A DNA stretch of 62,315 nt, counting the filler, from Stramenopiles sp. TOSAG23-2 (taxonomy: Eukaryota): NCBI GenBank assembly GCA_900128395.1. It is 35 parts of 35 records of this genome, joined end to end, with 100 filler letters (N's around TTAATTAATTAA, not from the genome) between each part and the next. Parts side by side here need not be neighbours in the genome. Positions count along the whole stretch, not along the records: positions 21,529 to 23,216 come from LT652498.1; 34 more parts are not named here. One strand, given 5' to 3'. Shown here piece after piece: positions 10,778 to 61,797 of this stretch (position 1 is the stretch's first letter; every line of letters starts with the position of its first letter). A program made the position numbers and the translations under genes. Under the pieces are notes generated by a model, which ran no database searches, was not told the origin of the DNA, and saw only the letters and a list, made by a program, of their open reading frames with translations.

Positions 10778-12471
10778 ATTATTTATTGGAAAAAAGTCGT
10801 AGTGTTATACAACCAGAATTAGAAAGAAATTTTCATATATTTTACCAACTATGCCAAGGTGCAGATGATGATATAAGGACTACATTGAAATTGCAGCCAG
10901 CCACATCATACGATTACTTAAATCAAAGCGGATGTCTCGAAGTCGACAGTATATCTGATGAAGAAGAATTTCAAAGTACAAGAATGGCGATGAAAACTTT
11001 AGGGTTGACACTTTCTCAGCAATTAGCTATTTTTAAATTGATATCTGCACATTTGCATTTAGGTAATATTGTGTTTGAAGAAGATAATATCACAAATAGC
11101 GACGGTGATAACGTTACTAGTAGCCGTATTGACCAGGCCCAACCATTAGAAAGAGCAGCTGAAATGTATGGTGTTGACGCGTCCGAATTATATGAAGCAT
11201 TAGTAACTAGAGTATCATCCCACCAGATGGAAATCCTGTTATAAAACATTTAGATCCAGAGCAAGCAGTATATGCACGTAATGCATTTGCAAAGTATGTA
11301 TATTCTGGACTTTTTGCTTGGTTAGTCGAACGTGTCAACCGTTCTTTAGAAAATTCCAAAGAACCTTTGAATTATGATAAAGTGAAATCAATCGGTATTC
11401 TTGATATATATGGCTTTGAAAGCTTATTAAATAATGGATTTGAGCAACTATTAATAAATTACGCCAACGAGACATTGCAAACGATATTCAATCGAGTAAT
11501 TTTTGAAGGAGAAAAAAGTTTATACTCCGCAGAAGGAATTAACTGGGATGCAACTGATTTTCCAGATAATTCGAAATGTTTAGATTTAATTGAACACCGT
11601 TCCAATGGTATTTTAGCTTTATTAAACGAAGAGTGCTTATTAGGCCATGGTACCGATTTAACGTTTTGTCGCAAAATTACGAATTTATTTACATCTACAC
11701 GCGATCCATATTTTGCAGCTTGTGGACCTTCCACTAAATGGAGAGACCCTTCCTCCGGCGAGCCTACAACAGAAATGCACTTTGTTGTTAGACATTTTGC
11801 TGGTAATATTATATATACATCAGAGTTTTTTATTGAGAAAAATCGTGATACCGTCAGTCAACGTCTAAAAAATTTGAGCAAAGACAGCACAAATAGTATT
11901 TTTCATAGCTTATCCACCATTCAAGATAACGCAATATCTAGTGGAAGTGGAGGCAGAAAAAATAGAGGGAACAAAAAAGGCCGTGACAAAGGTGGTAGAA
12001 AAGGTCATAACGAATTACACAGTACACTAGGGATGTCATTTAGAAAACAGTTAAAATCGATGGTTGAAGTAATCAAAGGGACTAAACCTGTATTCTTGCG
12101 TTGTATAAAATCGAACAATTATTTAAGAGAACAATTATGTGATTCTGTATCCGTCTTGCGGCAATTAAGGTGCAATGGTGTCCTTGCTGCATTAGATATG
12201 CGTCGTGCAGGATTTCCGACGCGTATATTGTACAAAGAGTTTTGTGAAAGATACCATGTTTTAGTAAAATCTAATCAGGATTCAGAAAGACGACGATCTA
12301 GCGGGAGTATTGGAAGAAGTTACAAGAAAAATTGGAAAAAAGTGGCAGAATCTATTTTATCAAATGAGATTGTTGAAGCAGCGGATATTAAGGGGTCAAC
12401 ACGTCTTGGAATTACGCGAATATTTTTCCGCTCTGGTGTATTAGCAATCCTCGATACGGTGAAAGAAACGG
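10778..12471 (+). CDS. Myosin motor domain, internal fragment, one apparent frameshift near 11215
   Basis: LLEKSR, ERNFHIFYQL, AFAKYVYSGLFAWLV (shifted frame), IGILDIYGFE, NYANETLQ, FLRCIKSN and QLRCNGV. Confidence 0.97.
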
Positions 12472-12813
12472 NNNNNNNNNNNNNNNNNNNNNNNNNNNNN
12501 NNNNNNNNNNNNNNNTTAATTAATTAANNNNNNNNNNNNNNNNNNNNNNNNNNNNNNNNNNNNNNNNNNNNATACTTGTAGTAAAAAAAATGAAAATATA
12601 AAATGGATTTTTATATAAAAGTATTATAAAAGTTGTAAATATTATAAGAATGAGAAATTAATATCATATCGATGCTAAAGTAAAAATATAAAATTTATAT
12701 TTTTATAGGATATTTTAGATATTAAACAGATCAAATTGGAATATTTGATATATTTTAATGATTTAAATCACCTTTACCTGCTCCTACGTGCTGGCCCGGC
12801 AGATTATTAAACC

Positions 12814-14365: not shown

Positions 14366-15570
14366 GTGCATTAGAAGGTCAAGAAGAAATGTTAGGACCA
14401 AAACATTCAGATACATTAATATCAGTCAATAATCTTGCTGGATTGTTCAGAAAACAAGATAAATTCGATGAAGCTGAATCATTATATAAACGTGCATTAG
14501 AAGGTCAAGAAGAAATGTTAGGACGAAAACATTCACATACATTAAATACAGTCAATAATCTTGCTGGATTGTTCAAAAAACAAAATAAATTAGATGAAGC
14601 TGAATTATTATATAAACGTGCATTAGAAGGTTATGAAGAAATGTTAGGACGAAAACATTCATCTACATTAAATACAGTCGGTAATCTTGCTTCATTGTTC
14701 TCAAAACAAAATAAATTAGATGAAGCTGAATTATTATATAAACGTGCATTAGAAGGTCAAGAAGAAATGTTAGGACCAAAACACCCAGATACATTAAAAA
14801 CACAAAATTTTCTTTTTGGCTGCAAATCCCGTGCTACCTTAGGACGGCAACAGAGTCAAGCAGACCATGTTGGTATTTTAAAACAAGGTACTGCTGTATA
14901 TATTCATAGTTTAACTGATGCTACACAACATAATGGTCGGATAGGAAGAATTAAACATTTTGACAACAGTAAAGAGGAATATACAGTAGATATAGGACCA
15001 GAAACTCCTCCATTAGCGTTAACATTGTCTCGTGCATTAGAAGGTAGAGAAGAAATGTTAGGACGAAAACATTCAGATACATTAAATACAGTCAATAATC
15101 TTGCTTTATTGTTCAAAAAACAAAATAAATTAGATGAAGCTGAATTATTATATAAACGTGCATTAAAAGGTAGAGAAGAAATGTTAGGACAAAAACATTC
15201 ATCTACATTAGATTCTGTATATAATCTTGCTGATTTATTAAAAACACAAGGTAAAATAAATGAAGCTATAACATTATTTGAACGAGAATTACAAGGTCTG
15301 ACAGAAATAAATGGAATGAAACATTCGGATACAATATATTCAGCAATGAATCTTGTTGAAATATTATTCGAGCAAGGAAAAGAAAATGAAGCACATGTAT
15401 TGGCAGAAGAATATGAACTATATGATGACGACGACGACGACGACGAACTATATGATGACGATGATAGTGATACCAATCATAGTGATGACAATGATAGTGA
15501 TACCAATGATAGTGATGACGATGATGGTGATACCAATGATAGTGATACTAACGATGTGAATGGTGATTAA
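14366..15570 (+). CDS. Kinesin-light-chain-type TPR (42-aa repeat) protein with inserted SH3/KOW-like module and acidic tail, 5' truncated
   Basis: Near-identical 126-nt repeats LGxKHSxTLxxVNNLAxLFxKQxKxDEAExLYKRALEG; insert GTAVYIHSL..HNGRIGRI..FD..YTV; D-rich tail. Confidence 0.9.
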
Positions 15571-21528: not shown

Positions 21529-23216
21529 CTCAAGCCAACCAAGTAATATTATAATACAAACAATACAATGATAATAAACAAATTACATAATACAAATATT
21601 CGATGTTAGTTTGGATCAATTACAAATAAGCATATAGAAAAGATTATTGATTGATCACCACGATTTACATTTATTTACTTACACCCTAAATCATATTGAT
21701 CAAATCAATAACATATCAAGCCAACGAAGTACATAAAATACTTACCATCGAATTACCTGATACGACACTGTCACTTAAACTCAGTGTACCACTTGTTATA
21801 TAAAATCCTCCACCCTTCAAATACGTGTATTATGTTAGTTTGGATCAATTACAAATCACCATATAGAAGAGAAAATTATTGATTGATCGACATCATTTAC
21901 ATTTATTTACTTACATTCTAAATCATATTGATCAAATCAATAACAATCAAGCCAACCAAGTAATATTATAATACAAACAATACAATGATTATAAACAAAT
22001 CACATAATACAAACATTCGATGTTAGTTTGGATCAATTACAAATAAGCATATAGAAAAGATTATTGATTGATCACCACGATTTACATTTATTTACTTACA
22101 GACTAAATCATATTGATCAAATCAATAATATATCAAGCCAACGAATCACATTATAATACAAACAATACAATGATAATAAACAAATTACATAATACAAATA
22201 TTCGATGTTAGTTTGGATCAATTACAAATAAGCATATAGAACATATTATTGATTGATCAACATCATTTTACATTTATTTACTATCAAGCCAACGAAGTAA
22301 TATTATAATACAAACAATACAATGATTATAAACAAATTACATAATACAAATATTCGATGTTAGTTTGGATCAATTACAAATAAGCATATAGAACATATTA
22401 TTGATTGATCAACATCATTTTACATTTATTTACTTACCATCGAATTACCTGATACGACACTGTCACTTAAACTCAGTGTACCACTTGTTATATAAAATCC
22501 TCCACCCTTCAAATACGTGTATTATGTTAGTTTGGATCAATTACAAATTAGCATATAGAAGAGAAGATTATTGATTGATCAACACGATTTCCATTTATTT
22601 ACTTACATACTAAATCATATTGATCAAATCAATAACACATCAAGCCAACGAATCACATTATAATACAAACAATACAATGATTAAACAAATCACATAGTAC
22701 AAATATTCGATGTTAGTTTGGATCAATTACAATCAGCATATAGAAGAGATTATTAAATGATCAACATACAGCCACATTACCTGATACGACACTGTCACTT
22801 AAACTCAGTGTACCACCTTTTATAAAAAATCCTCCACCCTTTTAATACGTATATATAATGTTAGTTTGGATCAATTACAAATCAGCATATAGAAGAGAAG
22901 ATTATTGATTGATCACACATCATTTACATTTATTTACTTACATACTAAATCATATTGATCAAATCAATAACACATCAAGCCAACGAATCACATTATAATA
23001 CAAACAATACAATGATTAAACAAATCACATAGTACAAATATTCGATGTTAGTTTGGATCAATTACAATCAGCATATAGAAGAGATTATTAAATGATCAAC
23101 ATACAGCCACATTACCTGATACGACACTGTCACTTAAACTCAGTGTACCACCTTTTATAAAAAATCCTCCACCCTTTTAATACGTATATATAATGTTAGT
23201 TTGGATCAATTATTAT
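21529..23216. repeat. Modular tandem array formed by near-identical introns and exons of the microexon gene
   Basis: tgttagtttggatcaattac recurs about 10 times, and a ~335-bp unit is repeated (22607 to 22942; 22770 to 23105). Confidence 0.97.
21683..23173 (-). CDS. Spliced beta-helix (Pmp-like GG..N repeat) gene fragment built from 69-nt exons and 3-nt microexons
   Basis: Exons in transcription order: 23173-23105, 22944-22942 (TAT), 22838-22770, 22609-22607 (TAT), 22506-22438, 22102-22100 (TCT), 21917-21915 (AAT), 21814-21746, 21685-21683 (GGT). All are AG|exon|GT(A/G) bounded and phase 0. Joined product: GGGFFIKGGTLSLSDSVVSGNVA-Y-GGGFFIKGGTLSLSDSVVSGNVA-Y-GGGFYITSGTLSLSDSVVSGNSM-S-N-GGGFYITSGTLSLSDSVVSGNSM-G. 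Confidence 0.85.
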
Positions 23217-25102: not shown

Positions 25103-26788
25103 TCGATGTCATTGTCAAACCCAAAAAAGCTCGGATTAAATTCTATACACAATGACCTTTCCCCATCGTGGGAATCGTCATCTGCAGTTGCACTATTTAA
25201 TAATGTTGGAAATGCCAACGGTGGCAATGCACCCATGTTTAACGGGAGATTAATTCTACCGCGGATTAGTCTCTTTTCATAATCAAACAAGTGAACGCCG
25301 GTCCATGCCATAGCAATATGTTCATTGTTTGCGCATATTTCAAAAGTAGCAAATGAGGTTAGCGGCAAATCTTTGATTTTGCATCCTAAATCAATAAATA
25401 CGTCCACAGGTATTATTAGCTTTTGACCGAATTCAATATCTACTGTATCCATTTCAATATCGTTATCAAATGTACTTTCAACAGCACATCGGGGTGTTTC
25501 ATATTTGAGACTCCCTTTTTCAATTGGACCTAACAAGGATGGTGACGATTCACCACACCCAGTCCCAGGCGATGGCCATAATTTTACGCGCACACGAAAT
25601 AGCATGGCACTTTGGCAACACCGTACCTTCTTGTTTTTCAATCCAACAAATAAATCTTCACAGTTGTCTAAATGCTTGACTTTCAATTCTATATTATTCT
25701 CAAGCGTGTGAGATTCATGTACATATGTTGAGTTGCAACAAGTTAACAGTTCGTCCTCGTGTATGTTCAAAGATGCAGTTCTAACAACACCTTCCACCTT
25801 CATCATATCCTCGGGTGTAAATGGATTTGCTGCTGGTCGCACAATTTGTAGGACAATCAGCGGCTCTTCGTCGCTTGCACTTATTGAATCATCTAAAATG
25901 AGATTCACCATGTCGGTTGACCTGGATTTTTCATTACCTTTTTGAGTTTTGAACTGCTCGCTAAATGTTGCGTTTTCATTTTCATATCCAGATGCAAAAA
26001 TTGGCAAAGCCATGACCGTATAATCAATTTGCTTTAAACTTTGCATCATACCCATGGCGCTTTTGTCATAATATGGATGGTCCCAAGCATGATCCTCTAG
26101 AATTGGCAAAGCCATGACCGTATAATCAATTTGCTTTAAACCTTGCATCATACCCATGGCGCTTTTGTCATAATATGGATGGTCCCAAGCATGATCCTCT
26201 AGTACAAATTCTCCGGTCCTTGCAACACCACGCATTATCCCTAATAATTTTGTCAAAATTATTTTATCACTAGCTTTGGACGATATCTGGATTGATTGCC
26301 CAGCTTTATCTCCATAAAGTGGTATTGCAATTGATATCTCCGATGCTTTGATAACTTTATTGTCTAAAAATAAAAGTAAACGGTGAATTATATCGCGTGC
26401 GGTTAATTCAGGTCCAATTACTTTTAAAAAGTCTAATTGTAATGAGCCAGATATTTTCTGAACATCTTGATTCCCAAGCGATGATTTCAAAGTCTCTACC
26501 ACAGACCAGGTCTTAACAATTTTCTTTTGCCTTGGTAAATTACCAACACCCTCCGTCTGCCTATTTTCACTTAAATTTCCGGATATCTCCCCCCAAGAGA
26601 ATGAGTTTGGTACATCTGGATCGCCTTTATAATCGCTTTCAATTTGCATGAGCAAATCATTATCGCCTTGAACATTGCGTGCATCAGCATCATCTTCGTC
26701 AAAAGTATCCTCCTCCTCCTCCCCCTCCATGTTCTCTTTCACAATTTCATCATCACCTGCAAGTGCATAATTAGGAGTTTCAATTAGC
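25103..26788 (-). CDS. GAF-like domain followed by PI3K-type C2 domain (probable PI3-kinase fragment)
   Basis: GAF-like VMALPIF..EPLIVLQIV..FTPEDM, then KIKDLPL..TFEI..AMAWTGVHLFDYEKRLIRGRINLPL (PI3K C2). Contains an in-frame 102-nt duplication. Confidence 0.7.
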
Positions 26789-41053: not shown

Positions 41054-41153
41054 NNNNNNNNNNNNNNNNNNNNNNNNNNNNNNNNNNNNNNNNNNNNTTA
41101 ATTAATTAANNNNNNNNNNNNNNNNNNNNNNNNNNNNNNNNNNNNNNNNNNNN

Positions 41154-42832
41154 CTACGCTTGCAATTGTCGTTGTCATACGTATATTGTCGACACGCGCC
41201 ATTGTAAATATACTCTGAAAATTTACATTGTATACAACTACTATCCCCATATTTACTACCTTCCAACAATATTTTTCTATCAGTCGTTTTACAATTATTT
41301 TCATTGTATGTATATAAGTTACATGTTCTATCAGACACAAACAAACCATTAACTTTACGAGGAGGCTTGCTCTCATACTCTTTGCCATTTATGCACTTGC
41401 GTATATTCTTACATATTGTATCATCGGTTTTAGAATACGTATTTCCACGACAAGCAGAACATTTAGAATCAGAATCATCATCCCCAACAACCATTTGATA
41501 GCCTGCAGCACATTTTAAATCTTTAAAAGTTTTATGGCTTTCACATGGACTTGACGAATCATCTAAATCATTAAATTTTCCAATTGTATTAGTCGTAGCA
41601 TAATACTTTGACCGACTACCTGCGCTTGTTATTGCTGTTTTTGAATTACATTTCAAACATTCCCAATCATTTTTGTTTTTACTATTTCCTTTGTATAATC
41701 CATAACCTTTGGTACATTTTTGAGTTTTGTCTACACACTTACGATTTGTTGATATGTACTGAGAAGATTCGCACACTATACTTTCCCACGCCTTCCTTAT
41801 CTGTTCGATTTGCTTTGTAGTATAACCTTCGTTGATAAGTTGATGATTAACTTGTTCGACCCCCAAATGTGGGTTTTGCTCCAGCCACCGTTTAATTTCT
41901 TGTATTATGGATTTTACAACAAACGGTTCCTTGCAGCCACTATCCGACTTAAGTGTGCCTGACACCAATATTTTTCCATCGCTACGCTTGCAATTGTCGT
42001 TGTCATACGTACATTGTCGACACGCGCCATTGTAAATATACTCTGAAAATTTACATTGTATACAACTACTATCCCCATATTTACTACCTTCCAACAATAT
42101 TTTTCTATCAGTCGTTTTACAATTATTTTCATTGTATGTATATAAGTTACATGTTCTATCAGACACAAACAAACCATTAACTTTACGAGGAGGCTTGCTC
42201 TCATACTCTTTGCCATTTATGCACTTGCGTATATTCTTACATATTGTATCATCGGTTTTAGAATACGTATTTCCACGACAAGCAGAACATTTAGAATCAG
42301 AATCATCATCCCCAACAACCATTTGATAGCCTGCAGCACATTTTAAATCTTTAAAAGTTTTATGGCTTTCACATGGACTTGACGAATCATCTAAATCATT
42401 AAATTTTCCAATTGTATTAGTCGTAGCATAATACTTTGACCGACTACCTGCGCTTGTTATTGCTGTTTTTGAATTACATTTCAAACATTCCCAATCATTT
42501 TTGTTTTTACTATTTCCTTTGTATAATCCATAACCTTTGGTACATTTTTGAGTTTTGTCTACACACTTACGATTTGTTGATATGTACTGAGAAGATTCGC
42601 AGACTATACTTTCCCACGCCTTCCTTATCTGTTCGATTTGCTTTGTAGTATAACCTTCGTTGATAAGTTGATGATTAACTTGTTCGACCCCCAAATGTGG
42701 GTTTTGCTCCAGCCACCGTTTAATTTCTTGTATTATGGATTTTACAACAAACGGTTCCTTGCAGCCACTATCCGACTTAAGTGTGCCTGACACCAATATT
42801 TTTCCATCGCTACGCTTGCAATTGTCGTTGTC
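41154..42832 (-). CDS. Cys-rich (TNFR/GCC2-like) repeat protein fragment made of two near-identical 828-bp (276-aa) units
   Basis: Continuous open frame with CxxC and SDRTC motifs; period 828 nt with only a few substitutions. Confidence 0.8.
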
Positions 42833-42932
42833 NNNNNNNNNNNNNNNNNNNNNNNNNNNNNNNNNNNNNNNNNNNNTTAATTAATTAANNNNNNNNNNNN
42901 NNNNNNNNNNNNNNNNNNNNNNNNNNNNNNNN

Positions 42933-48830: not shown

Positions 48831-50681
48831 ATATAATAAATAAGAGGACAAAGGAACAACAACAAAATGATGAGTTTGATTATACACCTTATTGGCAGTA
48901 GATTTGAATGCTTGTGTTCTCTAGATACCATACAGACTATATAATAAATAAGAGGACAAAGGAACAACAACAAAATGATGAGTTTGGCAGGCACAGCGCG
49001 CCATGCAGAAGATCATGTGGTAAAAATCTTAAGTACCAGCAGTTCATGGTTTTACTTCATAGTGTCACCGATGCTTGCATTAATAATTATCATTGCCTCT
49101 GATATTACACAACTTGGACTGTATATTCAGCAAAAACAGTAATTGAAATAAAATTATTATCAAAGAAATATATATATATACATCGACTATCACTAATTAA
49201 GTTCAGACAAATATATTTTCTAAATAAATTGTTATTAACAAAAAATTATTTGAGCAATTTTAAACGAAAAGCGTTGAAGGAAGGTAAACCGTAATATATA
49301 TATATACATCGACTATCACTAATTAAGTTCAGACAAATATATTTTCTAAATAAATTGTTATTAACAAAAAATTATTTGAGCAATTTTAAACGAAAAGCGT
49401 TGAAGGAAGGTAAACTGTATAAAGAGCCGGGTTGTTGAGGAAACAGATGATGATGAGGAGGAAAACCAAATCGGCAACAACTCCAATGGCAATAATAATA
49501 GTGATATGGTGGTTGAGGAAACAGATGATGAGGAGGAAAAAGAAATCGGTAACAACTCCAACTTTATTTTATATTGTACGTGGTAATAAAAAAAGAGGTC
49601 CTTACTTAAAAAGTATATACAGATGCAAGCGATGTATGAATAAATATATAGCTGATTTCACCACAGCATTTGAGAAATCTTTGGAGCCAAATTCCTTCCA
49701 TGCCCGGCCGTATGTCTTGTATACTAACATGCTAGCAATAATCGTACTATACTAGCTAGCCAGCTGCCAGCTATTATAGCTAGTCTTCTTTACAACCACA
49801 AATCAAATCATAATCATCACATACAATTCAATCACATCATAATAATATATATTGTATTGTTGCTGTTGGTGAGGGGTATCGTCGTATATATATACTAATC
49901 GATCAAGAATATTCAGTTATATATATANNNNNNNNNNNNNNNNNNNNNNNNNNNNNNNNNNNNNNNNNNNNTTAATTAATTAANNNNNNNNNNNNNNNNN
50001 NNNNNNNNNNNNNNNNNNNNNNNNNNNATTGGGCAGTATATAGAAAATGAAATTATGTGATTTTGTTGTTTTTCTTTTATACTATAATACGAGAGAGAGG
50101 AAAAAAGATTTATTTCGAATTTATAAAAATTATAGACATAATTAAATTTTATACGATGTTTATTATCAAGCGAACATAATTCGTCTATATCCATTGTAAA
50201 TTGTAAACTAGCTCTAATAGGAATTTAGTCAATTAGACACTACCAGTACGCCTATACCTGCTTTTACTCATGAATGTCGTTGATATTCTAAATTACAACA
50301 TTTGATTATTATTTAGATTTTCGATGCCCTTTTTTCGTATTTTGGCGGTTTTTTAATAGAGGTAATTATTGAAATTATTAGTATACTAACATCCGATTAA
50401 GTACATTTTGGAGTCGTGATTTACCTGGCCATTGCTTTTTCCCAGTGTGGATTAGAGAACATCAGGAACACCACTTACTGTAATTAAATAACACTACACA
50501 CAATTAAAACTACTAAGTTTAATATAAATACTATATATATATATATATCAGTGTATAAATAAAGATATATAGTAGATATAAATAAGACAAATCAAACATA
50601 TAATAAGAAACGATTATAAAACAGACAAGCAAACCAATTACAACGAACATACTTTAGTAACAACAACAATAATAAAAAAAA

Positions 50682-59389: not shown

Positions 59390-61107
59390 AGTTGTCTATA
59401 AAATGAATTTCTATATCGTATTCTGGCTGAATATATTGAATTCTTTGACTTGTTTTTTCTTTCAAAATGCAATATTAAAAAAAACGAACTTTATAAAATG
59501 AATTTCTATATCGTATTCTGGCTGAATATATTGAATTCTTTGACTTTTTTTTTTTCAAAATGCAATATTAAAATGATCAATTTAAAAAAAAAAAAACAAA
59601 AAAAAAACGAACTTTTGGAAGGGTTATCAAAATTATGAACAAAATTACAAATAATCAAAAGAGGAGGAAGTGTAATATAAGACTACCTATATATAAGAGG
59701 GTGTGTGCAATGTATTTCTAAAATATTACACATATATATTTTTGCAAAGGGTTTGAATGTTTGAATTATTCCATCGAATTTGATCGCAAGTGGACTCATA
59801 TTGTTGCATCATTTTTCAAATAATACATAATCCCCCCGCTAAATGAAAAAAAACGTAACCCATATTATTATAAACTACCAATTATTCATACTTATAAATA
59901 TACCTATATAATTACCGATTAACAGGCAAATAGCGTTGATGGAACATCGGGAAATCTTCCACTTTAAGGTTTGACCGGCTAAAACCCTTATAACTATGTA
60001 AAAAATATTGTTGCAAATAGCAAACAACAAAAGAAGAGCACAATAACAAGGCACCAAGAAATAAAGAACTTCTTTATCAAGTTAAAGTGATTAGTTTATA
60101 CTACGAGGCGTCGTAGTACGAATAGTTAAAGTACATGTTGTACACTTGTTGTTCCTGTTGCTGTATTAAGTGTTCTCACACTCTAGTGTGTTGATTCATA
60201 TATATATGTGTGCCATATAGTATTTATATTTTTATTAAAATAAATACGTAGTACGAATAGTTAAAGTACATGTTGTACACTTGTTGTTCCTGTTGCTGTA
60301 TTAAGTGTTCTCACACTCTAGTGTGTTGATTCATATATATATGTGTGCCATATAGTATTTATATTTTTATTAAAATAAATACAGTTTAATTAAACTATCA
60401 TGTATGCATACGTATATTTAATGATACGAACGGTTCGTATTATATTTTACACTTGTGTATATCATATTATGATTATATAATATATATGTATATGCACGTA
60501 AAAATCTCTCTCGCTCTGCTTTTTCAATAAAAAATTGTTCTAGCTTNNNNNNNNNNNNNNNNNNNNNNNNNNNNNNNNNNNNNNNNNNNNTTAATTAATT
60601 AANNNNNNNNNNNNNNNNNNNNNNNNNNNNNNNNNNNNNNNNNNNNTGGGTTTACTCAGTGGAGCTTACATGTGCATCTGGGCCTTGACTAAGATGTATC
60701 ATGCTACTTATTTTTTGTGTGCACTTGCTGGGTTATTATTCTTACGGGATTTAGGTTTTTAAAAGGAGAGACAGAAGAGGTCTCGTATCATACAGTAAAA
60801 AAGTACACGATTAACACCTACGGAGTGTGTGTGTGTATATGAGTAAAAGAGAAAAATTATAATATACATGGCTATATTTGATTAAATTTTGTAAAAATAT
60901 GATTCGTACGGCTTCGTATCTTAATGTGTTGATTTTATATGATATTTTAAATTTAATATTTTTTTATATAAAATATAAAAATGACTTTCTTTATGATATT
61001 AAAATATTAATTTTTTGTGCATACATATATATAATGGCTAGTACTTTCTTCATTTTCATATCCTGTCAGAGGTGGTTTAGGTAATTCTGCTTGTTCCACT
61101 TTCCAAA

Positions 61108-61797
61108 TTAATTTTTTGTGCATACATATATATAATGGCTAGTACTTTCTTCATTTTCATATCCTGTCAGAGGTGGTTTGGGTAATTCTGCTTGTTCCAC
61201 TTTCCAATTTCTATCTGCGTTTTCCAATAAATTAATTCTTGTAGATGGACTACCATGACTAACAATTGCAAAACTTCCACCTGGTTTTAGAATACGATAC
61301 ATCTCCCAAATATATTCTGTTGCTTTGCTAAAACTATTATCACCGCATAATAAGGCATCCAGCAACGCTTTGTCTAAAATAAAATCAAAACAGTTTTCAG
61401 GTACAAAATCTAAGCGACAACAATTTGCTGGTATAAATTCCAAGCTTTCTATATTACGATAACGCTCTTGCATCTGCTGAACAACGACTGTACTTGCATC
61501 AACACATGTTATATTTTGATAGCCTTCACGAAAAAGCTCTGCACCAAGTGGCGAATTTCCAGAACCTGGTATTAAAACTTCAAAATCACCGTTCGTCGAT
61601 AATAATGTTTTTATAAACGGTTTTATTCTACTGTAACTTTGGTACCAATCAAACGATTCATTACTTCGTGCACTGTATCGTTCATCCCAATAGGATGGAT
61701 GTTTTATTCTACTATAACTTTGGTACCAATCAAACGATTCATTACTTCGTGCACTGTATCGTTCATCCCAATAGGATGGATTGCCATAATCAGGCAT
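61108..61797 (-). CDS. Class I SAM-dependent methyltransferase (EEF1AKMT4/METTL13 N-terminal-like)
   Basis: DYG..SYWDERY...FDWY, VLIPGSGNS, FDFILDKALLDALLCG and YRILKPGG; contains an 81-nt in-frame duplication. Confidence 0.92.
   Translation of the reverse strand: MPDYGNPSYWDERYSARSNESFDWYQSYSRIKHPSYWDERYSARSNESFDWYQSYSRIKPFIKTLLSTNGDFEVLIPGSGNSPLGAELFREGYQNITCVDASTVVVQQMQERYRNIESLEFIPANCCRLDFVPENCFDFILDKALLDALLCGDNSFSKATEYIWEMYRILKPGGSFAIVSHGSPSTRINLLENADRNWKVEQAELPKPPLTGYENEESTSHYIYVCTKN

What the first reader, a model, noticed from the sequence alone, without database searches (positions are those of the whole stretch)
21529..23216. Apparent satellite is a spliced beta-helix gene with single-codon (3-nt) microexons supplying the variable loop residues
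Seen in sequence: on the minus strand, four exactly 69-nt blocks (23173-23105, 22838-22770, 22506-22438, 21814-21746) are each bounded by AG and GTAAGT/GTATGT. They translate as GGGF[F/Y]I[K/T][G/S]GTLSLSDSVVSGN[V/S][A/M]. Between them the motif ...GATTTAG|NNN|GTAAGT occurs five times. Its splice-site flanks are invariant while the three middle bases differ (TAT, TAT, TCT, AAT, GGT = Y, Y, S, N, G) and are never a stop. All junctions are phase 0. Established: GG-x-hydrophobic...N repeats form right-handed beta-helices (Pmp/pectin-lyase-like), and the residues between N-x-A and GGG are the variable turn. The intronless relative at 752-1207 has SGE and GRN at this position. Inference: the loop is built one codon per exon, so exon skipping, duplication or shuffling could diversify a surface or adhesion protein combinatorially without ever shifting frame. 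Repeat-per-exon shuffling (Ectocarpus ROCO LRRs) and schistosome micro-exon genes are precedents, but I know of no description of one-codon exons arrayed this way.
Basis: partly seen in the sequence, partly recalled or inferred. Interest (0 to 1): 0.97.

Follow-up and report, generated by a model that had tools for sequence, protein, structure and literature searches.

The report
One-codon exons in a beta-helix gene
A small contig from an AT-rich marine microbial eukaryote seems to hold part of a surface-protein gene whose loops are built from rows of exons only three bases long, an extreme gene structure that normal annotation would miss.

Summary
On the minus strand of a 1,688-base contig (21529-23216, bounded by artificial linkers) there are four 69-nt AG|...|GT blocks and five GATTTAG-NNN-GTAAGT sites. 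Only the first two bases of each triplet vary. All 10 genomic triplets (5 here, 5 in metagenome locus L001) are NNT, so "never a stop" is automatic.

Support for real 3-nt exons:
- Intron bodies are almost free of AG: 18 observed against 68 expected, while GA is 65 against 68. The AGs that remain sit at the proposed splice sites.
- The NN columns are hypervariable inside invariant splice-site flanks.
- The same intron family sits at the equivalent N-x-x|GGG turn of a single-copy secreted beta-helix/TIG gene on L001.
- An intronless paralogue, P0004, has 3 residues at that position.
- Two contigs of an RNA-Seq-labelled marine run join 69-nt exons through exactly 15 in-frame bases, and 9 of those 10 codons are NNT (chance about 0.001).

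Caveats: the RNA label is a guess, both repeat assemblies are probably collapsed, and combinatorial exon skipping was not seen. I put serially spliced one-codon exons at about 0.65. This is a new variant of known microexons.

The parts
23174..23216 (-). 3' end of an intron (ACTAAC ... AAAAG) that runs off the contig
23105..23173 (-). 69-nt exon 1, phase 0, GGGFFIKGGTLSLSDSVVSGNVA
22945..23104 (-). 160-nt intron, GTATGT...ACTAAC...103 AG-free nt...TTTAG
22942..22944 (-). proposed 3-nt exon TAT (Tyr)
22839..22941 (-). 103-nt intron, GTAAGT...ACTAAC, 22 nt to AAAAG
22770..22838 (-). 69-nt exon 2 (same peptide as exon 1). RNA-run contigs cover it at depth 14-22
22610..22769 (-). 160-nt intron, GTATGT...TTTAG
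22607..22609 (-). proposed 3-nt exon TAT. Other runs also show AAT here
   Evidence: table 3, place 22609
22507..22606 (-). 100-nt intron, GTAAGT...ACTAAC, 20 nt to TGAAG
22438..22506 (-). 69-nt exon 3, GGGFYITSGTLSLSDSVVSGNSM. Both RNA joints land on its first base, 22506
22103..22437 (-). 335-nt intron made of two units. The microexon site between them is deleted, leaving the only stray AG of the contig
22100..22102 (-). proposed 3-nt exon TCT (Ser)
21918..22099 (-). 182-nt full intron unit, GTAAGT...ACTAAC...105 nt...TTTAG
21915..21917 (-). proposed 3-nt exon AAT (Asn)
21815..21914 (-). 100-nt intron before exon 4
21746..21814 (-).
21686..21745 (-). 60-nt intron without ACTAAC (a deletion variant or an assembly join)
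21683..21685 (-). proposed 3-nt exon GGT (Gly)
21529..21682 (-). 5' part of the next intron unit, cut by the contig end
734..1207 (+). Intronless relative on another contig: two or three GGG...NN.A coils with 3-residue linkers, then a Cys-rich stalk. Homologous to P0004 (E 2e-6)

Best explanation
The contig is a fragment, probably collapsed by assembly, of a gene of an AT-rich marine microbial eukaryote. The gene encodes a secreted or surface protein of a family with this layout: signal peptide, Cys-motif region, right-handed beta-helix-like coils, Cys-rich stalk, IPT/TIG domains.

Each coil core of 23 residues (GGG...S-G-N-x-x) is one 69-nt phase-0 exon. The turn to the next coil is encoded by a row of 3-nt exons of the form NNT. 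There are five per turn in the RNA seen, and fewer in this contig.

Every exon and microexon is separated by a member of one conserved intron family, 100-185 nt long. These introns share a perfect GTAAGT (or GTATGT) donor, an invariant block TTGTAATTGATCCAAACTAACAT with a yeast-like branch box, an AG-free body, and a TTTAG (or AAG) acceptor.

Inferred mechanism. Introns are removed one by one by intron definition, probably co-transcriptionally. Each removal joins the growing upstream exon to the next NNT and leaves an intact ...NNT|GTAAGT donor for the next intron. The spliceosome therefore never has to define a 3-nt exon on its own. A roughly 20-bp pairing between the region just after the donor and the region just before the acceptor may hold each intron's own ends together and discourage skipping.

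Gene conversion keeps the introns alike, while selection keeps the two variable bases of each triplet different because they encode turn residues (G, N, D, S, Y, F, I, H).

Shown: the sequence anatomy, the AG avoidance, the second locus, the paralogue's linker, and joined molecules with NNT codons. Inferred: that those molecules are mRNA of intron-bearing genes, the order of splicing, the role of the stem, and the selection argument.
For: 1. Signals. All 13 complete proposed introns of the two loci start with GTAAGT or GTATGT and end with AG, and 12 of 13 hold ACTAAC. The 23-nt branch block is exact in 16 of 18 copies across the window and L001 (the other two carry 1 and 2 mismatches), although the arrays are only 73-79% alike overall.

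2. AG avoidance on the gene strand only. Window introns: AG 18 observed against 67.6 expected, GA 65 against 67.6. L001 intron region: AG 14 against 66.9, GA 71 against 66.9. Of the 14 intron pieces scored (13 complete introns plus L001 J1), 12 have no internal AG. L001's last intron is 404 nt without one. The 81 substitutions that separate 7 units from their consensus would create 12.6 AGs on average in simulation; none is seen (the copies are not independent).

3. The AG-to-GT spacing is exactly 3 at 10 of 10 sites. The NN columns have entropy 1.36 and 1.57 bits against a mean of 0.35 elsewhere, the third base is invariant, and the 20 nt before and 9 nt after are nearly invariant.

4. Independent context. 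On L001, a 14-kb metagenome contig, a 406-codon first exon (start codon, hydrophobic N-terminus) ends ...ENMILTNGE|GTAAGT. Five TTAG-NNT-GTAAGT sites follow (GGT, TTT, GAT, GAT, TAT) at a 184-nt period. The next exon then starts GGGLYVGS... and runs into TIG domains.

5. Paralogue. P0004 (1,078 aa, one ORF) aligns with L001 exon 1 up to ...VILTHAE. It holds the coil GAAFKVGGGSLIVSDSIVSENFA, which is the best match of the window exon among 155 proteins (52% over all 23 residues). That coil is followed by PGQ and then GGGF. A linker therefore exists exactly where the microexons lie. The window relative has 3-residue linkers too.

6. RNA. In run X19 (library labelled METAGENOMIC RNA-Seq), 2 of 5 laid contigs join 69-nt exons. 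One carries 18 and the other 17 letters between the aligned sides. On the gene strand these read, in frame, as the exon's last codon plus GGT ATT AAT CAT AGT, and as the last codon plus GGT AAT GGC TAT GGT. That is exactly 15 extra bases each time, with 9 of 10 codons NNT (tables 5, 5c, 8). NNT codons are 37.6% of 6,361 codons in this window's long ORFs, so P(9 or more of 10) = 0.001.

7. Boundaries and depth. No X19 contig crosses an exon-intron boundary, while the DNA run X1 has contigs that do. X19 depth is 14-22 on exons against 2.7-4.2 on introns. X1 depth is 33-600 on exons against 1,230-4,470 on introns (tables 2, 8). None of X1's 38 laid contigs shows an exon-exon join.
Against: - The tool marks X19 as 'RNA? 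(a guess: may be DNA)'. Its joints have short sides (28-31 nt) and 90-100% likeness, which the tool warns often come from other organisms or repeats.
- No genomic locus with five microexons in the order seen in the RNA was recovered. This contig encodes 1, 1, 2 and at least 1 triplets between exons.
- The oligo-dT RNA run X20 (2 contigs laid) covers only intron sequence, including one contig that runs unspliced across a microexon.
- In DNA run X1 the laid microexon site shows only TAT (table 3).
- The ACTAAC box lies 103-105 nt from the microexon acceptors, far from the usual distance. One 60-nt intron has no ACTAAC at all.
- The terminal stem has 0 compensatory pairs in 40, and folding energy is ordinary (z -0.6 and -1.4).
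- Repeat copies share ancestry, so the counts overstate the number of independent observations.
- Both arrays come from short-read assemblies.
Confidence: 0.65

Rival explanations
1. Each stretch between two 69-nt exons is removed as a single long intron. On this reading the TTTAG-NNT-GTAAGT sites are inert internal features of a tandemly duplicated intron segment. The joined molecules in X19 come from an intronless paralogue (like P0004) or from another organism, present as DNA or RNA.
For: - Intronless paralogues of this family exist (P0004; window 734-1207).
- A direct A|GGG join is also in frame.
- X19's nature as RNA is a guess, and its joints are short and only 90-100% alike.
- X20 RNA shows the microexon unspliced.
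- The final ACTAAC of each inter-exon stretch sits 20-22 nt from the acceptor of the 69-nt exon, a normal distance.
Against: - It does not explain why AG is purged from 1.4 kb of intron yet kept, with exact 3-nt spacing to a perfect donor, at 10 of 10 sites.
- It does not explain why the NN columns are hypervariable while the flanks are invariant.
- It does not explain why 9 of 10 loop codons in the joined contigs are NNT.
- It would leave N-x-A directly fused to GGG, whereas relatives have 2-5 linker residues.
- None of the 38 contigs laid from DNA run X1 shows the joined form.
Confidence: 0.2
2. The microexons are real but are cassette exons. Different transcripts include different subsets, giving combinatorial loop variants of a surface protein.
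For: - All proposed exons are multiples of three and phase 0, so any subset keeps the frame.
- All introns carry interchangeable signals.
- Flatworm micro-exon genes are described as working this way (passages read in 10.1101/2020.04.08.031872).
Against: - Both joined contigs seen have exactly five extra codons.
- No join with fewer codons was listed among the 92 contigs laid. The sample is tiny, and short contigs cannot show rare isoforms.
Confidence: 0.1
3. The contig is a decaying or non-coding satellite derived from an exon-intron unit, or a misassembly. It is not part of a working gene.
For: - It is a 1.7-kb orphan contig with 335-, 185- and 152-nt tandem periods.
- It carries degenerate units: a deleted microexon site and a 60-nt intron without a branch box.
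- The same assembly shows many perfect 100-nt tandem duplications that look artificial.
Against: - The four exon frames are open and the copies are not identical (89-97% alike).
- Independent runs from 16 studies hold parts of it.
- An independent metagenome contig has the same intron family inside an intact gene.
- Exon sequences are enriched over intron sequences in the RNA-labelled run.
Confidence: 0.05

Closest known systems
Single 3-nt (and 1-2-nt) constitutive or alternative microexons of animals, plants and protists
   Same: A 3-nt, in-frame exon between two ordinary GT-AG introns that adds one residue to a structured domain. Strong GTRAGT donors next to ultra-short exons are reported for plant 1-nt exons. 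Examples: cytohesin-1, hth, MAP4K5, and RPS24 with three consecutive microexons of 3, 18 and 22 bp (listings and abstracts); plant APC11 and VPS55 1-nt exons (passages of PMC8831610); Amphidinium 3-nt exons (passage of PMC12584245).
   Different: The known cases are isolated, or at most two or three mixed-size microexons. Here up to five 3-nt exons lie in a row and are repeated at every coil. All are NNT, and all are flanked by copies of one conserved intron.
Flatworm micro-exon genes (MEGs)
   Same: Runs of at least 4 consecutive exons shorter than 70 nt and divisible by three, making up most of a secreted or surface protein's coding region. The predicted exons of this contig (4 of 69 nt and 5 of 3 nt) meet that operational rule. 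The definition was read in 10.1101/2020.04.08.031872; DeMarco et al. 2010 is cited there but was not read.
   Different: MEG microexons are about 6-36 nt as I recall (not checked here), are not single codons, are not flanked by one homogenised intron family, and do not build a repeat fold. No homology is expected. MEG variation by skipping is documented; here it was not seen.
Recursive splice (ratchet) sites of long animal introns (recalled, not read here)
   Same: An acceptor AG is placed directly next to a consensus GTAAGT donor, so the intron is removed stepwise and the upstream exon is re-used.
   Different: Ratchet sites leave nothing in the mRNA. Here three bases lie between the AG and the GT, and the triplet does not begin with GT, so each step must leave one codon behind.
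Introner elements (intron-generating transposons, frequent in marine protists)
   Same: Many near-identical introns that carry their own splice signals, in a marine microbial eukaryote. The units hold an inverted repeat. Source: abstracts of PMC9860276 and PMC12130899.
   Different: Copies are tandem and confined to one gene family in the 76 kb examined. The inverted repeat is internal, not terminal. The flanking triplets match as a target-site duplication would at only 1 of 4 L001 units.
Repeat-per-exon genes (one structural repeat per phase-symmetric exon; recalled)
   Same: One 23-residue coil core per 69-nt phase-0 exon, in tandem.
   Different: The inter-repeat turn is split off into separate one-codon exons.

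Membership tests
U2-type GT-AG spliceosomal introns flanking coding microexons | GT donor and AG acceptor at every proposed boundary | tested here: met
   13 of 13 complete proposed introns in the window and L001
U2-type GT-AG spliceosomal introns flanking coding microexons | Branch-point consensus upstream of the acceptor with no intervening AG | tested here: met
   ACTAAC is present in 12 of 13 introns, and no AG lies between the last ACTAAC and the acceptor in any of them. The distance is 103-105 nt at microexon acceptors
U2-type GT-AG spliceosomal introns flanking coding microexons | Microexon present in mature RNA | tested here: inconclusive
   2 of 5 X19 contigs carry 5 in-frame, mostly NNT codons between 69-nt exons. 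However, the RNA status is a guess and the matching genomic order is unknown. X20 shows only the unspliced form
Micro-exon genes (operational rule of 10.1101/2020.04.08.031872) | At least 7 exons, at least half of them shorter than 70 nt and divisible by 3, with a run of at least 4 such exons | tested here: met
   9 predicted exons in the contig, all 69 or 3 nt. The rule was read. This rests on predicted, not verified, exons
Micro-exon genes (operational rule of 10.1101/2020.04.08.031872) | Protein variants made by skipping microexons | tested here: inconclusive
   No skip variant among the 92 contigs laid. Contigs drop rare forms
Right-handed parallel beta-helix (pectin-lyase-like / Chlam_PMP repeats) | Significant match to a family profile | tested here: not met
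   Window relative: Chlam_PMP E 0.83, 10.6 bits against a cut-off of 20.6. P0004: no beta-helix family
Right-handed parallel beta-helix (pectin-lyase-like / Chlam_PMP repeats) | Beta-solenoid fold | tested here: inconclusive
   The single-sequence model of P0004 residues 90-420 is all-beta but has pLDDT 45. The best Foldseek E-value is 0.18, and most top rows are beta-helix enzymes, tailspikes or adhesins. All 8 listed language-model clusters at 0.86-0.89 except one unnamed one are Beta_helix, Chlam_PMP or DUF1565 families, which is a lead only
IPT/TIG-domain surface proteins | TIG domains in the same polypeptide | tested here: met
   Met for the L001 gene (E 7e-23) and for P0003 and P0004. 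Not testable for the window contig itself, which holds only coil exons
Introner elements | Copies dispersed in unrelated genes, with terminal repeats and target-site duplications | tested here: not met
   All 18 copies of the core block lie in the two arrays. The flanking triplets are equal at 1 of 4 units. Only 76 kb could be examined
Recursive splice sites | Zero-length exon (AG directly followed by GT) | tested here: not met
   The spacing is 3 nt at 10 of 10 sites

The most novel reading that the evidence does not exclude
Every turn of this beta-helix is written codon by codon. Five obligatory one-codon exons per coil, and so dozens per gene, are spliced in series. A dedicated, sequence-conserved intron cassette pairs with itself so that each donor finds its own acceptor. 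Concerted evolution keeps the cassettes alike while selection keeps only the two coding bases of each triplet different. This would be the densest known use of minimal exons and a natural test bed for the lower limit of exon recognition.
Probability: 0.5. Interest if true: 0.9.

Novelty: new variant of a known kind. Interest (0 to 1): 0.8.

Why it matters
- Splicing. If confirmed, rows of 3-nt exons would show that a spliceosome can routinely handle exons far below any exon-definition limit. They would also offer a compact natural cassette (a 180-nt intron plus NNT) for studying how.
- Evolution. It would be a clear case of introns homogenised by concerted evolution around coding dinucleotides held apart by selection. 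It would also be a way to lengthen or vary protein loops one residue at a time without ever breaking the frame.
- Annotation. Such genes are invisible to gene finders, to read aligners and to short-read assemblers. Surface-protein repertoires of uncultured marine eukaryotes may be systematically mis-read as satellites.

Tried and rejected
I did not try to lengthen it.
- Metagenome scan with a 21-nt exon core: 0 hits. The second and last scan, with the microexon motif, gave only L001.
- Three protein-database searches with the first 160 residues of L001's downstream exon (near, longer, shorter). Seven proteins were found. None crosses the junction from a transcript. P0157 reads through the intron end as genomic DNA.
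- phmmer of P0004 against 1.84 billion representatives. The 150 listed hits are TIG-rich giant proteins. A local search of their sequences with the beta-helix part found only P0001-P0004.
- Runs X20 and X3 cover only intron sequence of the laid stretch. This says nothing firm about expression.
- The depth ratio of intron to exon in X1 (about 5:1) would fit five or six introns per exon. The tool warns that contig depth is not copy number, so I do not count it.
- Terminal stem: a conserved 20-bp pairing is predicted, but with 0 of 40 compensatory pairs and unremarkable energy. I keep it as inference only.
- Rfam: no match in the contig. Two sub-threshold C/D-box rows in L001 (E 0.6-0.8, far below gathering) were rejected.
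- Opposite-strand ORFs of 95-96 aa across the L001 array were rejected. The unit length of 184 is not a multiple of 3, and the frame is open only because the gene strand lacks AG.
- Target-site-duplication model for introner insertion: rejected for the reason given under closest known.
- Structure: the model has pLDDT 45, and Foldseek finds nothing at E of 0.001 or better.
- Earlier notes of this scan: none for this genome or this sequence.
- Literature searches found single 3-nt exons and mixed microexon runs, but no array of consecutive 3-nt exons. Supplements were not seen.
Full report
WHAT THE WINDOW IS. The 62-kb window is not one piece of chromosome. It is about 35 contigs of 1.67-1.70 kb, in order of size, joined by 100-base linkers (44 N, TTAATTAATTAA, 44 N). 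The finding fills one whole contig, 21529-23216. There is therefore no neighbouring gene to read, and the 'relative at 752-1207' lies on another contig. No whole genome is held for the window. The DNA has about 29% G+C. Other contigs carry long, nearly intron-free eukaryotic ORFs: myosin, a PI3-kinase domain, WD40, RCC1-like, ankyrin, TPR and plant-type LRR, as read from the translations. Parts of the contig occur in marine metagenome runs of 16 studies. I did not determine the lineage.

THE OBSERVATION. It is correct as written. There are four 69-nt blocks bounded by AG and by GTATGT or GTAAGT, and five exact GATTTAG-NNN-GTAAGT sites found nowhere else in the window. Two corrections apply.
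- The triplets are TAT, TAT, TCT, AAT and GGT. The third base never varies, so the absence of stop codons is automatic.
- The contig is a tandem repeat with periods of 335, 185 and 152 nt. The DNA run that holds it best is broken into 60-80-nt unitigs there (table 8). The contig is thus one path through a tangled graph. The number of units between exons (1, 1, 2 plus a degenerate one, and at least 1) should not be taken literally.

ANATOMY. All spacers are built from one intron family. It consists of a donor GTAAGTAAA, an arm GATCAATCAATAAT, the invariant block TTGTAATTGATCCAAACTAACAT, and then one of two tails. The short tail is about 20 nt, ends in AAG and leads into a 69-nt exon. The long tail is about 105 nt, ends ...ATTATTGATTTGATCAATATGATTTAG and leads into a triplet.

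The most telling property is the near-absence of AG on the gene strand.
- Window introns hold 18 AG against 67.6 expected, while the mirror dinucleotide GA is 65 against 67.6.
- Every one of the 42 AGs on the gene strand of the contig lies in an exon, in a GTAAGT or at a proposed acceptor. The one exception is at a unit whose microexon site has been deleted.
- The 81 substitutions that separate seven units from their consensus would have made about 12.6 new AGs if placed at random. None exists. The copies share ancestry, so the true number of independent changes is smaller.
- In this AG-purged setting, an AG placed exactly three bases before a perfect donor is kept at every unit.
- Across the ten sites of the two loci, the two variable bases are among the most variable columns (1.36 and 1.57 bits against a mean of 0.35). 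The 20 bases before and the 9 after are almost invariant.

Homogenised flanks around a dinucleotide that stays different are what one expects if the dinucleotide is coding and under selection. They are hard to explain for inert satellite.

A SECOND, INDEPENDENT LOCUS. A scan of public metagenome contigs with the microexon motif returned one 14-kb contig, L001. An exon-core pattern had found nothing.

On L001 the intron family sits in an ordinary gene.
- A 406-codon first exon has a start codon and a hydrophobic N-terminus (read by eye) and ends ...ELVIENMILTNGE|GTAAGT.
- Five TTAG-NNT-GTAAGT sites follow, 184 nt apart: GGT, TTT, GAT, GAT, TAT.
- A 404-nt AG-free last intron comes next.
- The downstream exon begins GGGLYVGSNS... 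and continues into IPT/TIG domains (Pfam E 7e-23).

The 1,397-nt intron region has 14 AG against 66.9 expected (GA 71). Twelve of the 14 are donors or acceptors. The other two lie before, or one base after, the first branch box. The arrays of L001 and the window are 73-79% alike overall, yet the branch block is exact in 16 of 18 copies.

Neither the rest of the window nor the rest of L001 holds a copy, so in this small sample the family is not a dispersed introner. L001 may itself be collapsed. Its paralogue P0004 has about eight coils where L001 has only the array.

THE PROTEIN FAMILY. Searches with L001's downstream exon found marine metagenome ORFs (P0001-P0003, P0156, P0157) and P0004, a 1,078-residue single-ORF paralogue.
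- P0004 shares the N-terminal Cys motif and the ...VIENVILTHAE end of L001's first exon.
- It shares the Cys-rich stalk and TIG domains.
- It is homologous to the window's intronless relative (E 2e-6).
- Its coil GAAFKVGGGSLIVSDSIVSENFA is the best match of the window's 23-residue exon among 155 stored proteins (52% identity end to end, E 1.9 on its own). It is followed by PGQ and then GGGF.
- The window relative likewise has three residues (SGE, GRN) before GGG.

Intronless relatives therefore carry a short linker exactly where the microexons lie. A direct A|GGG join would delete it.

The beta-helix fold itself is probable but not shown. Pfam gives only E 0.83 for Chlam_PMP. Language-model neighbours are beta-helix families at scores that count only as leads. 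A single-sequence model is all-beta but has pLDDT 45, and its fold matches are non-significant though mostly beta-helix.

RNA. One run search and one read-laying run were allowed. I laid a 481-base stretch (22400-22880: exon 2, intron, TAT, intron, exon 3) against four runs: X20 (oligo-dT RNA), X19 (library 'METAGENOMIC RNA-Seq', flagged by the tool as a guess), X3 (unknown kind) and X1 (the best DNA holder).

In X19, 2 of 5 laid contigs join exon to exon.
- One runs from exon position 36-66, through 18 other letters, into exon position 1-50.
- The other runs from position 21-67, through 17 letters, into position 1-28.
- Read on the gene strand, both are in frame. Each equals the exon's last codon followed by five codons: GGT ATT AAT CAT AGT and GGT AAT GGC TAT GGT.

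The coil is therefore 69 + 15 = 84 nt, or 28 residues. That equals the 28-residue second coil of the window relative. Nine of the ten extra codons are NNT, the form of all ten genomic triplets. NNT makes up 37.6% of codons in this window's long ORFs, so the chance of nine or more in ten is 0.001. GGT, AAT and TAT are also among the genomic triplets.

No X19 contig crosses an exon-intron boundary, whereas X1 contigs do. X19 depth is 14-22 on exons against 2.7-4.2 on introns, the reverse of X1. None of X1's 38 contigs shows an exon-exon join.

Against this reading:
- X19 may be DNA.
- The joint sides are short and 90-100% alike.
- X20 shows only intron sequence, including an unspliced microexon.
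- The genomic array that would give those five codons in that order has not been seen.

MECHANISM (inferred). The introns have near-perfect donor and branch signals, as in intron-poor eukaryotes. I propose that they are removed one at a time by intron definition. After each removal the next triplet is fused to a long upstream exon and is followed by an intact GTAAGT, so no 3-nt exon ever has to be recognised in isolation. This is the logic of recursive splicing, except that the triplet does not start with GT and so must stay in the mRNA.

A predicted 20-bp pairing lies between the segment after the donor and the segment before the acceptor, and it is conserved in all seven units aligned. It could tie each intron's ends together and favour serial over skipping splicing. 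It has no covariation support.

Whether ACTAAC, 103-105 nt upstream, or a nearer TTGAT-type site is the branch point for microexon acceptors is open. One 60-nt unit lacks ACTAAC.

RIVALS.
- A single long intron with inert internal sites, plus intronless paralogues as the source of the X19 contigs: about 0.2.
Skipping was not seen, but the sample is tiny.
- A dead satellite or misassembly: about 0.05.

COMPARISON AND NOVELTY. Single 3-nt and even 1-nt exons are known in animals, plants and protists. RPS24 has three consecutive microexons of 3, 18 and 22 bp. Flatworm micro-exon genes have runs of symmetric microexons. Two earlier notes of this scan report single 2- and 3-nt exons in heterolobosean amoebae.

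By the operational rule read, the predicted structure qualifies formally as a micro-exon gene. What I found no description of in four literature searches (supplements not seen) is a row of consecutive one-codon exons, repeated at each structural repeat and embedded in one homogenised intron family. I rate it a new variant of a known kind, with confidence 0.65 that the microexons are real and interest 0.8.

Noticed in passing
window 1-62315: The window is about 35 unrelated contigs of 1.67-1.70 kb, sorted by length and glued with N44-TTAATTAATTAA-N44 linkers. Any feature that seems to span a linker is artificial.
   Followed up: yes
window 4319-4522, 6413-6608, 25999-26202, 49167-49419, 60112-60382, 61006-61207, 61620-61781; also ORF 41102-42880: Many contigs hold a perfect or near-perfect (98-100% matches) two-copy tandem duplication of 81-135 nt. 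One contig encodes the same ~290-residue Cys-rich segment twice. These look like assembly artefacts at read-length scale rather than biology.
   Followed up: no
window 11150-11300: A myosin motor ORF changes frame within a few bases (ORFs 10726-11244 and 11211-12527) with no splice signals there. A homopolymer sequencing error is likely.
   Followed up: partly
window 14366-15297: 126-nt (42-residue) TPR repeats of the kinesin-light-chain type, 3.5 + 2 copies, followed by an acidic low-complexity tail.
   Followed up: no
L001 1318-1420 versus protein P0157: The 3' end of the last intron is better conserved between two orthologous loci than the exon that follows. Read-through 'translations' agree at about 27 of 34 positions, against roughly 60% in the first 30 exon residues (counted by eye). 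This suggests constrained intron sequence next to a fast-evolving coil.
   Followed up: partly
window 21686-21745 and 22280-22290: Two aberrant units: a 60-nt intron without the ACTAAC block, and a unit whose TTTAG-NNT-GTA segment is deleted, leaving the only stray AG. These are either real decay or assembler joins.
   Followed up: partly
window 22609 in runs X3, X19, X20: At the laid TAT microexon, other runs show AAT as a variant (X3 38 of 158 depth; X19 and X20 all). DNA run X1 shows only TAT. No variant of the third base appears in any run (table 3).
   Followed up: no
L001 5441-6826 (+) and 7293-11447 (-): The neighbours of the beta-helix/TIG gene are long uninterrupted ORFs (461 and 1,384 residues, the latter helicase-like by eye). 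The microexon array stands out in an otherwise intron-poor stretch.
   Followed up: no
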